Shown here: in pieces, positions 1-600 of the stretch | How positions within the stretch are numbered: position 1 is the stretch's first letter | How the letters are laid out: each line of letters starts with the position of its first letter | Sequence record: MN655999 | Length of the DNA stretch: 64,000 nucleotides | Strand: one strand, 5' to 3' | Origin: Shigella phage Z31 | Position numbers and translations under genes: made by a program | The notes under the pieces: model-generated | Told to the model about the DNA's origin: nothing | Databases searched by the model: none | Seen by the model: only the letters and a program-made list of their open reading frames with translations

Positions 1-600
1 TAAGGCTCTTCCTAGTAATTACACCCCAACTATGTAGAAAGCTCTTTATAGGGCTTTACAGGGGCTTTAAAGGCTATGCTAAAGACTCTTACAAGGCTTT
101 TACATGGTTTTAACAGAGATTTAACAAGGGGCTAACAAGTTGCTAACAAGTGCCTTAAAAGCATAACTATGTAGGGTTTGTTAAGAAATTGTTAAGAAAA
201 TGTTAAGGGGGCTAGCATTTACGTAACTTTATAGCCCCTATAACATACTTTTTAGTAACTAACAAGCTCCTTTTTAGTAGTTCACAAGATAGCTAACGAG
301 ATAATAAAGCTCATAACCTTATAAGATTCTTTTAAGCCTCTATAAAGCCCTGTAAAGAGCTTTTTAAGGTGAGTTAATGCAATCCCTTAAGTTAGGTTGA
401 TAAGGCTGTTATAGAGCTTTATAGAGCGTTTAAACGGTTGCCCTTCCCTTTCGGGTTATGGGCTTATATTTAAGTTGATTTGATAAAAGGTTATAGAGTA
501 AGCTATAGAGTTATTGCTTTTAAGGTCTAGTAAGATTCTGGAAAGGGCAGGGAAAGGGAAAGGGTTGTATAGGATTCAATAAGATGTAAAAAAGCCCCTA
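1..600. repeat. ORF-free repeat-rich region (short direct repeats GCTAACAAG, GTTAAGAAA, TATAGAG, GAAAGGG)
   Basis: No ORF of 60 aa or more on either strand; multiple short direct repeats visible by eye. Confidence 0.5.

What the first reader, a model, noticed from the sequence alone, without database searches (positions are those of the whole stretch)
1..600. 600-bp ORF-free region dense in short direct repeats at the window start
Seen: no ORF on either strand, but recurrent short motifs (GCTAACAAG, GTTAAG(A)AA, TATAGAG, GAAAGGG x3, GGCTTTACA/GGCTTTAAA). An A-type-like hairpin element at 620-657 points into this region on the minus strand. Could be a genome-end or packaging region, an origin, or a non-coding transcript.
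Basis: seen in the sequence. Interest (0 to 1): 0.45.

Follow-up and report, generated by a model that had tools for sequence, protein, structure and literature searches.

The report
Felix O1-type phage terminal-repeat end region
The gene-free, repeat-rich first 650 bases of the window are the inner end of a Felix O1-like phage's roughly 0.6-kb direct terminal repeat plus the non-coding spacer beside it, a genome-end region already mapped by experiment in close relatives, so the finding is real but largely ordinary.

Summary
Window 1-653 has no ORF. Every listed motif is present and 10-100 times enriched. Underneath lies a strong 11-bp (one helical turn) periodicity that no other tile of the window reaches.

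The window is a Felixounavirus (Felix O1-like myovirus). Five GenBank relatives that carry both copies of their direct terminal repeat (DTR, 581-694 bp) all place one DTR boundary at window position 212 (…ATGTTAAGGGGGC|TAGCATTTACG). Run-off sequencing of UAB_Phi87 virion DNA places it at 204.

So window 1-~210 is the last third of the DTR, and 213-653 is unique non-coding DNA between the DTR and the last early gene. The short repeats are phased iterons (CTTTAnAGGG, CTAACAAG, TTGTTAAG). They crowd the inner edges of the DTR and vary in copy number in exact 11-bp steps.

The whole 1.7-kb non-coding region is about 75% identical across three genera, while the neighbouring protein is only 42-48% identical. 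I infer cis-acting sites for end recognition and packaging; an origin role is not excluded.

The element at 620-690 is an early promoter plus hairpin, and a terminator at 587-612 stops it at once. No Rfam RNA family matches. The identity is already known for the genus; the iteron architecture appears undescribed.

The parts
1..212 (.). Last ~210 bp of the ~0.6-kb direct terminal repeat (DTR). The first ~400 bp of the DTR lie upstream of the window.
   Evidence: Window 1-212 aligns at 88-97% to the DTR copy at the far end of SPJ41, D4, SeKF_63, NBSal004 and ECP2307, and the alignment stops exactly at 212 in all five. The published UAB_Phi87 DTR aligns to window 1-204. The upstream part of the DTR is absent from the window.
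41..177 (+). About 12 consecutive degenerate 10-12-bp units (GCTCTTTATAGG, GCTTTACAGGG, GCTTTAAAGG … GCTAACAAGTT, GCTAACAAGTGC …).
   Evidence: Read directly from the sequence. Lag-10-12 self-match is 0.53-0.61 in 120-bp windows here against ~0.3 in coding DNA.
122..152 (+). 11-bp tandem array, three copies of TAACAAG(nnnn).
   Evidence: TRF: period 11, 2.8 copies. Copy number is 2-5 among relatives, always in exact 11-bp steps.
178..212 (+). 11-bp tandem array of three TGTTAAG units, ending at the DTR boundary. Its core is the reverse complement of the TAACA core used elsewhere in the DTR.
   Evidence: TRF: period 11, 2.7 copies, 94% matches. Relatives have 2-5 copies. The last unit, ATGTTAAGGGGGC, is followed by the boundary.
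204..212 (.). DTR boundary. This is the physical right terminus of virion DNA and also the DTR/unique junction at the left end.
   Evidence: Position 212 comes from five terminally duplicated GenBank records. Position 204 comes from run-off sequencing of UAB_Phi87 virion DNA (PMC4837284 Fig. S1). Window 201-220 is identical in all 23 aligned relatives, of which 7 were not selected by that sequence.
213..386 (.). Unique non-coding DNA just outside the DTR. It holds the TTACGTAA palindrome (219-226), a hot spot for insertion of AACTTTTAAGC-type units after ~226, and CTTTAnAG units in inverted orientation (329-366).
   Evidence: Alignment of 23 relatives shows 0-5 extra units inserted after 226. 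The inverted repeat 35-72 / 329-366 is 33/38 complementary in the window but only 23-30/38 in relatives, so no stem is being maintained.
387..426 (+). Module M1: TTAAGTTAGGTTGATAA…TATAGAG…TATAGAG.
   Evidence: Direct repeat with 470-486 (family D16). TATAGAG at 410 and 420. Identity across relatives is 0.92-0.97, and the module is conserved across genera.
440..463 (+). Conserved two-tier hairpin, GCCC-TT-CCC-TTTC-GGG-TTAT-GGGC, followed by a T-rich tract. Function unknown. On the + strand it looks like a weak intrinsic terminator.
   Evidence: Invariant between Felixounavirus, Suspvirus and Mooglevirus. A divergent variant in 3 loci (GCCA-T-CCCC-TTTCT-GGGG-TTAT-TGGC) folds into the same shape.
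470..510 (+). Module M2: TTAAGTTGATTTGATAA…TATAGAG…TATAGAG, a second copy of M1.
   Evidence: About 95% identical between the window and Mooglevirus KMM2 over 436-515.
540..565 (+). Purine-rich GGAAAG/GAAAGGG micro-repeat, the least conserved part of the region.
   Evidence: TRF: period 6, 4.3 copies. Identity is 0.6 with indels among relatives, and nothing is conserved across genera.
587..612 (-). Intrinsic terminator of the long leftward early transcription unit (AGCUCCU-UUUCAU-AGGGGCU followed by U6).
   Evidence: The fold of 575-660 on the minus strand gives -25.2 kcal/mol, z = -4.5. In 12 distinct relatives the stem is kept while loop sequence and length vary. The window's U·G pair works only on the minus-strand RNA.
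625..640 (-). Stem-loop GGGGCUAAAUAGCCCC.
   Evidence: Folds. Conserved in 11 of 12 relatives.
651..679 (-). Sigma-70-type early promoter, TTGACG-N17-TAAATT, pointing into the region. One of five copies of a promoter plus 5' stem-loop cassette.
   Evidence: Promoter scan. Five copies of CCCCGTTGATTAGTAATTTAC at 637, 1236, 2319, 3540 and 4408, with 0 expected. The other four copies are followed by an RBS and a start codon.

Best explanation
The window comes from a Felix O1-like myovirus (Felixounavirus) and starts about 400 bp inside that phage's ~0.6-kb direct terminal repeat.

Anatomy:
- Positions 1 to ~204-212 are the last third of the repeat.
- 204-212 is where virion DNA ends. In a replicating concatemer it is where the single repeat copy meets unique DNA.
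- 213-653 is unique non-coding DNA between the repeat and the 3' end of the long early operon, which stops at a terminator at 587-612.

Shown by homology: the identity of the region and the position of the terminus.

Inferred: the short repeats are helically phased 11-bp iterons, so their copies lie on one face of the DNA. I propose they are cis-acting binding sites for the machinery that recognises the concatemer junction, cuts at the two repeat boundaries and starts or finishes packaging. That machinery would be the terminase small subunit or another phage DNA-binding protein. As in T7-type phages, the repeat would be duplicated by DNA synthesis during this processing.

The conserved hairpin (440-463) and its flanking TATAGAG modules are part of the same conserved cis-acting block. 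Their specific role is unknown.
For: Taxon: 256 phage records match window 1-3000, nearly all Felixounavirus. 241 of 254 records cover at least 80% of window 1-650.

Context: in relatives the region is the right part of a ~1.65-kb gene-free gap between convergent gene blocks.

Terminus:
- Five records with both DTR copies (613, 581, 613, 694 and 592 bp) all end at window 212.
- Run-off sequencing after Bal31 mapping of UAB_Phi87 gives a 608-bp DTR whose end maps to window 204 (PMC4837284).
- PhageTerm gives DTRs of 613 bp for Ro111lw (PMC6454146) and 581 bp for Pr103Blw (PMC8303462).

Repeats are not chance: z = 6.9 at lag 11, and the value is unique in the window.

Repeats sit at the DTR edges: the periodicity peaks lie just inside both boundaries. 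86% of TAACAR spacings of 45 bp or less fall in helical phase, against 30% expected.

The unit of change is 11 bp: the arrays hold 2-5 copies in relatives.

Selection: the 1.7-kb non-coding region is 74-76% identical between three genera, whereas the adjacent 176-aa protein is 42-48% identical. Both boundary sequences are conserved in all three. The Erwinia phage Ea21-4 keeps GTATATCTGCTT and the TTAACAR arrays.
Against: - No virion DNA or read data exist for this phage, so the terminus is placed by homology only.
- The two methods disagree by 8 bp (204 against 212).
- No protein has been shown to bind the iterons, and the terminase genes lie outside the window.
- The similarity between the two ends (GGTAGCCCTTAACAT against GCTAGCCCCCTTAACAT on the other strand) is only marginally above what this repeat-rich region gives by chance (about 2-3% of random pairs).
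- Iterons could serve replication or another DNA-level function instead of packaging, or as well as it.
Confidence: 0.8

Rival explanations
1. Iteron-type origin of replication. The phased 11-bp repeats would bind a phage initiator, and DNA would unwind nearby. The region would be at the genome end only incidentally, or because end-proximal origins help concatemer formation.
For: Phased direct repeats at one-turn spacing are typical of iteron origins, and that pattern is present here. The region is non-coding, strongly conserved across genera, and contains a conserved hairpin flanked by repeated modules. This reading is not exclusive of the packaging role.
Against: There are no DnaA or IHF consensus sites in 1-660. 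There is no pronounced AT-rich block: the 40-bp GC minima are 0.25-0.28 against a genome value of 0.38. No initiator gene is adjacent. The strongest arrays hug the two DTR boundaries rather than forming a single cluster. GC skew in the window follows transcription direction and shows nothing at this end.
Confidence: 0.15
2. A non-coding RNA locus. The region would be transcribed from the promoter at 651-679 or from internal promoters, and the product would act as RNA.
For: A good sigma-70 promoter points into the region. The stretch 575-660 on the minus strand folds well (z = -4.5). The hairpin at 440-463 is conserved, with one structure-preserving variant.
Against: There is no Rfam hit at E of 1 or less. 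The promoter runs into a conserved terminator within ~65 nt, and in relatives that promoter drives small protein genes that this phage has lost. Promoter-like sites are at chance level. Variation occurs in whole 11-bp units, and the large inverted repeat is not kept by compensatory change. Both are signs of a DNA-level element rather than an RNA-level one.
Confidence: 0.07
3. Functionless spacer. This would be slippage-prone leftover DNA between two convergent operons that merely separates them, with repeats that arose by replication slippage.
For: Copy number changes in 11-bp steps, and the 540-565 micro-repeat varies freely. Both flanking operons have their own terminators.
Against: The non-coding DNA is better conserved across genera than the neighbouring protein-coding genes, at about 75% nucleotide identity against 42-48% amino-acid identity. 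Several 20-bp blocks are invariant in six phages from three genera. The termini lie inside the region.
Confidence: 0.05
4. Entry-control or nucleoid-protein platform. The phased repeats near the end would bind host or phage architectural proteins. These would pause or organise DNA ejection or protect the ends, loosely like the repeat-rich injection-stop region of phage T5.
For: The region lies within ~1 kb of a physical end, next to a battery of small early genes that each have their own strong promoter. AA/TT phasing is in the top 1% of window tiles for 221-440.
Against: AA/TT phasing in the DTR part (1-220) is unremarkable (rank 74 of 580), so intrinsic curvature does not explain the arrays. 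Which end enters first is unknown. No homology to T5 was seen. The T5 comparison rests on my memory of the literature and was not tested here.
Confidence: 0.08

Closest known systems
Direct terminal repeat of Felix O1-like phages (UAB_Phi87: 608 bp by Bal31 mapping and run-off sequencing; Ro111lw: 613 bp and Pr103Blw: 581 bp by PhageTerm)
   Same: Homologous sequence: window 1-204 is 88% identical to the published UAB_Phi87 repeat. The boundary sequence is the same, and so is the position between the two convergent gene blocks.
   Different: Nothing essential differs. This phage has its own copy numbers of the 11-bp units. It also lacks one or two small genes that relatives have between the repeat and the 176-aa gene.
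T7/T3-type concatemer junction (short exact terminal repeat, processed by terminase with duplication of the repeat during packaging)
   Same: A short, non-permuted, exact repeat of a few hundred bp, and non-coding DNA with arrays of short repeats next to the repeat ends. The class assignment is made in PMC6454146 and PMC4837284. The repeat arrays of T7 are from my memory.
   Different: There is no sequence similarity. This is a myovirus that uses host RNA polymerase, so the T7 RNA-polymerase-dependent steps cannot apply. The repeat is 3-4 times longer. Transcription on both sides runs towards the ends.
Terminase recognition sites built from phased repeats (lambda cosB R-sites with IHF, P1 pac hexamers, SPP1 pacL/pacR)
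   Same: Several short repeats in helical phase flank a defined cut site.
   Different: There is no IHF consensus and no GATC at all, so a P1-like Dam-controlled pac is impossible. The ends are exact repeats, not cohesive ends or headful-permuted ends.
Iteron origins (lambda ori, plasmid oriV)
   Same: Direct repeats spaced one helical turn apart in conserved non-coding DNA.
   Different: There are no DnaA boxes, no clear AT-rich unwinding element and no adjacent initiator gene. The arrays are spread over 1.7 kb and centred on the repeat boundaries.

Membership tests
Felixounavirus direct-terminal-repeat (genome-end) region | Sequence homologous to the segment present at both ends of virion DNA in relatives | tested here: met
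   Window 1-212 matches the terminal duplication of five records at 88-97%. It matches the experimentally sequenced UAB_Phi87 repeat at 88% over window 1-204.
Felixounavirus direct-terminal-repeat (genome-end) region | Conserved boundary sequence at the repeat/unique junction | tested here: met
   ATGTTAAGGGGGC|TAGCATTTACG is identical in the window and in 7 independently chosen relatives. It is nearly identical in Suspvirus and Mooglevirus.
Felixounavirus direct-terminal-repeat (genome-end) region | Position in the gene-free gap between the convergent early block and the tRNA/lysis block | tested here: met
   Annotated relatives show + strand genes ending ~1.2 kb upstream and minus-strand genes starting ~0.45 kb downstream of the boundary. 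The window gene order is rIIA, NAMPT, Nrd and primase-helicase on the minus strand.
Felixounavirus direct-terminal-repeat (genome-end) region | Physical termini and twofold read coverage in this phage's own virion DNA | not testable with these tools
   No reads or virion DNA are available for the source of the window.
Felixounavirus direct-terminal-repeat (genome-end) region | Large terminase subunit of the short-DTR clade | not tested
   The head and terminase genes lie beyond the 64-kb window; the last genes seen are tail genes. PMC4837284 reports that Felix O1-type terminases cluster as a DTR group.
Iteron-type replication origin | Cluster of phased direct repeats | tested here: met
Iteron-type replication origin | DnaA boxes and/or an adjacent AT-rich unwinding element | tested here: not met
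   No TTWTNCACA or relaxed DnaA box in 1-660. The lowest 40-bp GC value is 0.25-0.28.
Iteron-type replication origin | Replication initiates here | not testable with these tools
   This needs marker-frequency or 2D-gel data.
IHF-assisted cos/pac site (lambda cosB, P1 pac) | IHF consensus site between the repeats and the cut; Dam (GATC) hexamers for P1 pac | tested here: not met
   No WATCAANNNNTTR in 1-660. GATC occurs 0 times in the whole window.
Described non-coding RNA family | Match to an Rfam covariance model | tested here: not met
   No match at E of 1 or less on either strand of 1-1500.

The most novel reading that the evidence does not exclude
The helically phased CTTAACAR / CTTTAnAGGG iterons line both inner edges of the terminal repeat. 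Together with the invariant boundary sequences and the conserved hairpin/TATAGAG block 230-300 bp outside the repeat, they would form a sequence-defined end-recognition (pac plus cut) signal shared by the whole subfamily Ounavirinae. A still unidentified phage protein would read them. This would be the first dissected packaging signal of a short-DTR myovirus. It would also explain why this non-coding DNA is better conserved than the genes beside it.
Probability: 0.35. Interest if true: 0.45.

Novelty: already known. Interest (0 to 1): 0.27.

Why it matters
The practical gain is for annotation. The window can be oriented on the virion chromosome: it starts ~400 bp from one physical end, the terminus lies at 204-212, and the early operon ends at 587-612.

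For biology, how short exact terminal repeats are recognised, cut and duplicated is understood only for T7-like podoviruses, not for myoviruses such as Felix O1. Felix O1-type phages are widely used for Salmonella and E. coli typing and biocontrol.

This non-coding region is more conserved than its neighbouring genes, is built of one-turn-phased iterons and has invariant cut-site flanks. That gives a concrete set of sites to mutate or footprint. It also matters for engineering these phages, because insertions or deletions here may affect packaging.

Tried and rejected
- Rfam scan of 1-1500, both strands, E of 1 or less: nothing.
- Simple promoter and terminator scan: promoters at chance level. 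The scan missed the 587-612 terminator, which folding and alignment then showed.
- IHF, DnaA, Chi and Dam motifs in 1-660: none.
- Intrinsic curvature as the explanation. AA/TT phasing is ordinary in the DTR part (rank 74 of 580) and high only in 221-440. The periodicity is therefore carried by specific motifs, not by A-tracts.
- The 38-nt inverted repeat 35-72 / 329-366, roughly centred on the terminus, as a cruciform or hairpin. Complementarity is 33/38 here but 23-30/38 in relatives with no compensatory changes, so I rejected it as a maintained stem. It reflects the same units in opposite orientation on the two sides of the boundary.
- A terminal inverted repeat at the two cut sites: present and conserved in three genera, but only marginally significant against this repeat-rich background.
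- The GCTAGC palindrome at the boundary as a symmetric cut site: not conserved in Suspvirus or Mooglevirus, which have GCTAAC.
- 'Terminal repeats' in the records of KMM2 (64 bp) and Sf17 (427 bp, including a gene). They do not coincide with the conserved boundaries and look like assembly overlaps, so I did not use them.
- The UAB_Phi87 GenBank version held here is not opened at the ends. I used the published repeat sequence instead.
- The PhageMaP screen of the relative Bas63 targeted genes only, and no supplementary data were held, so it gives no essentiality data for this region.
- A literature search for T7 concatemer-junction details returned nothing directly usable. Statements about T7, T5, P1, lambda and SPP1 are from memory and are marked as such.

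Full report
**What is in the sequence**

Window 1-653 has no ORF. Nothing of at least 25 aa starts and ends inside 1-599, and all six frames carry 11-27 stops. The first real gene is 654..1184 on the minus strand (176 aa, PHROG 4725, unknown function).

Each occurs 0.02-0.15 times per 600 bp elsewhere in the window, so the enrichment is 10-100 fold.

The feature that ties the motifs together is periodicity. The fraction of bases identical to the base 11 positions further on is 0.397 against 0.271 in dinucleotide shuffles (z = 6.9). At lag 22 z = 5.3. Both values exceed those of all 210 other 600-bp tiles. TRF reports 11-bp arrays at 122-152 and 178-207 and 10-11-bp arrays at 44-73 and 409-432. 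Read by eye, 41-212 is an almost unbroken run of about 15 units of 10-12 bp.

**Where the window comes from**

Window 1-3000 matches 256 phage records, almost all Felixounavirus (Felix O1-like myoviruses of about 87 kb), at 80-90% identity. Window 1-650 is covered at 80% or more by 241 of 254 matching records.

The gene content agrees with this. On the minus strand there are small early genes, then rIIA (14333-16699), NAMPT, ribonucleotide reductases and primase-helicase. DNA polymerase is on the plus strand from 39120. Tail genes are on the minus strand from 50.5 kb.

In annotated relatives, the window start lies about 1 kb into a ~1.65-kb gene-free gap between two convergent gene blocks.

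**The genome end**

Five GenBank relatives include both copies of their direct terminal repeat: SPJ41 (613 bp), vB_EcoM_D4 (581), SeKF_63 (613), NBSal004 (694) and ECP2307 (592). In each, the copy at the far end of the record aligns to window 1-212 and stops exactly at 212. The junction reads …AAAATGTTAAGGGGGC|TAGCATTTACG. The other boundary, …GTATATCTGCTT|GGTAGCCCTTAACAT…, lies about 400 bp upstream of the window start and is not in the window.

This is not only an assembly inference. Bardina et al. (PMC4837284) located the ends of UAB_Phi87 with Bal31 and then sequenced off the ends of virion DNA, finding a 608-bp repeat. Their published repeat sequence maps with one end at window 204 and the other end 2 nt outside the boundary used in the GenBank records. 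PhageTerm analyses gave 613 bp for Ro111lw and 581 bp for Pr103Blw. The original Felix O1 paper had already inferred short terminal repeats.

So window 1 to ~204-212 is the last third of the repeat, and the rest of the region is unique DNA. In this orientation the window is the left part of the virion chromosome, missing its first ~400 bp. The 8-bp disagreement between methods is unresolved.

**Anatomy of the rest of the region**

- 651-679 (minus strand): a sigma-70-type promoter, TTGACG-N17-TAAATT. It is followed by a stem-loop at 625-640.
- This promoter is one of five copies of a cassette in 600-4500. In the other four copies, the promoter and stem-loop are followed by a ribosome-binding site and a small gene.
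- Here the cassette is followed by a hairpin plus U6 at 587-612. Across 12 distinct relatives the stem is kept while the loop changes in sequence and length. The window's own variant has a U·G pair that works only in the minus-strand RNA. This is the intrinsic terminator of the long leftward early unit.
- Relatives carry one or two more small genes between the 176-aa gene and this terminator (for example SPJ41 1067-1315). The window lacks them, with the junction at the shared …CAACGGGG sequence.
- 440-463: a two-tier hairpin flanked by two copies of a 40-bp module, TTAAGTT…TTGATAA…TATAGAG…TATAGAG, at 387-426 and 470-510. A divergent variant of the hairpin in three loci keeps the same fold.
- 540-565: a variable GGAAAG micro-repeat.

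**Evidence that the non-coding DNA is functional**

Within the genus, the arrays change only in whole 11-bp units. CTAACAAGnnn occurs in 2-5 copies and TTGTTAAGAAA in 2-5 copies, and units of the AACTTTTAAGC type are inserted just outside the boundary. The boundary itself is invariant.

Across genera the result is stronger. The complete ~1.7-kb non-coding region aligns at 74-76% nucleotide identity between Felixounavirus (SPJ41), Suspvirus (phiSUSP1) and Mooglevirus (Michonne, KMM2). The neighbouring 176-aa protein is only 42-48% identical in those phages.

Both boundary sequences, the array next to the boundary and the 436-515 hairpin/module block are among the most conserved stretches. The Erwinia phage phiEa21-4 (Kolesnikvirus) still has GTATATCTGCTT followed by runs of TCTTAACAR units.

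In the five full repeats there are 17-21 TAACAR sites. 86% of their spacings of 45 bp or less are within 0.15 turn of a multiple of 10.7 bp, against 30% expected. The periodicity peaks just inside both repeat boundaries.

**Most likely mechanism**

Shown: the region is the end of the terminal repeat plus adjacent spacer, the terminus is at 204-212, and a terminator closes the early operon at 587-612.

Inferred: the phased iterons put many copies of a short motif on one face of the helix next to each cut site. That is the layout expected for cooperative binding of a recognition protein, such as the small terminase subunit or another phage protein, which would position the nuclease at the boundaries.

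Phages with short exact repeats duplicate the repeat by DNA synthesis coupled to packaging. This is the class description cited in PMC6454146 and PMC4837284. The same is assumed here.

The two virion ends read alike from the outside in: GGTAGCCCTTAACAT and, on the other strand, GCTA|GCCCCCTTAACAT. This would fit one enzyme acting in opposite orientations. However, the match is only marginally above the background of this repeat-rich DNA (about 2-3% of random pairs), so I treat it as a lead.

**Alternatives**

- An iteron origin is not excluded and could coexist with the packaging role. The window part has no DnaA or IHF sites and no marked AT-rich block, and the arrays track the repeat boundaries.
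- A non-coding RNA is unlikely. There is no Rfam hit and no excess of promoters. The inward promoter is terminated at once. Variation occurs in 11-bp DNA units, and the 38-nt inverted repeat 35-72 / 329-366 is not maintained by compensation.
- A functionless spacer is contradicted by the cross-genus conservation.
- A role in DNA entry or end protection cannot be tested here.

**Novelty and verdict**

The direct terminal repeat of Felix O1-like phages and its location are already published, and this window is a homologue at 85-90% identity. I therefore rate the finding as already known and of low to moderate interest.

I found no description, in the papers searched, of three things: the fine structure (one-turn-phased iterons at both inner edges of the repeat, changing in 11-bp steps), the invariant boundary sequences, and the fact that the whole non-coding region is better conserved across three genera than its neighbouring genes. 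That part is a testable lead towards the packaging signal of short-DTR myoviruses.

Noticed in passing
window 1-64000: GATC is completely absent: 0 sites against about 225 expected from base composition or from a second-order Markov model. CCGG, CGCG, GGCC and CTAG are also depleted. This suggests strong selection against Dam, MutH or GATC-cutting restriction sites.
   Followed up: partly
window 620-4430, minus strand: There are five copies of a cassette made of a sigma-70 promoter (TTGACA-N17-TAAATT), ACTAATCAAC and a GGGGAGG…CCTTCCCC stem-loop. In four of them, a ribosome-binding site and a small gene follow. They look like modular early-gene units and match the 39-bp repeats reported for Felix O1.
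   Followed up: partly
window 587-679, minus strand: This phage lacks the one or two small genes that relatives have between the 176-aa gene and the terminator (for example SPJ41 1067-1315). The junction lies at the shared CAACGGGG sequence. A strong promoter is therefore left firing straight into two hairpins, which predicts an orphan RNA of about 65 nt.
   Followed up: partly
window 387-510: A two-tier hairpin (440-463) is flanked by two copies of a 40-bp TTGATAA…TATAGAG…TATAGAG module. This is the most conserved block of the spacer, about 95% identical to Mooglevirus KMM2 over 436-515. Its function is unknown. It resembles a weak + strand terminator or a protein-binding site.
   Followed up: partly
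L010/L011 (NBSal004, MN994503): Its terminal repeat is 694 bp rather than ~600 bp because of an internal 49-bp tandem duplication. Repeat length in the genus (581-694 bp) changes by internal unit gain and loss, while the boundaries stay fixed.
   Followed up: no
GU169904.1 ('Staphylococcus phage SA1', 147 kb), positions 132912-136084: A record labelled as a Staphylococcus phage carries Felix O1-like DNA that matches window 1-3000 at 88%. It is probably a chimeric or contaminated database record.
   Followed up: no
L031/L032 (KMM2, OP902295) and L033/L034 (Sf17, MF327004): The 'terminal repeats' in these records (64 bp, and 427 bp including a gene) do not coincide with the conserved repeat boundaries, which lie internally. 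They look like assembly overlaps rather than true ends.
   Followed up: partly
window 204-212: Run-off sequencing (UAB_Phi87) and read-based records disagree by 8 bp at this boundary, but by only 2 bp at the other boundary. The cause could be technical, or could reflect overhangs or ragged ends.
   Followed up: no
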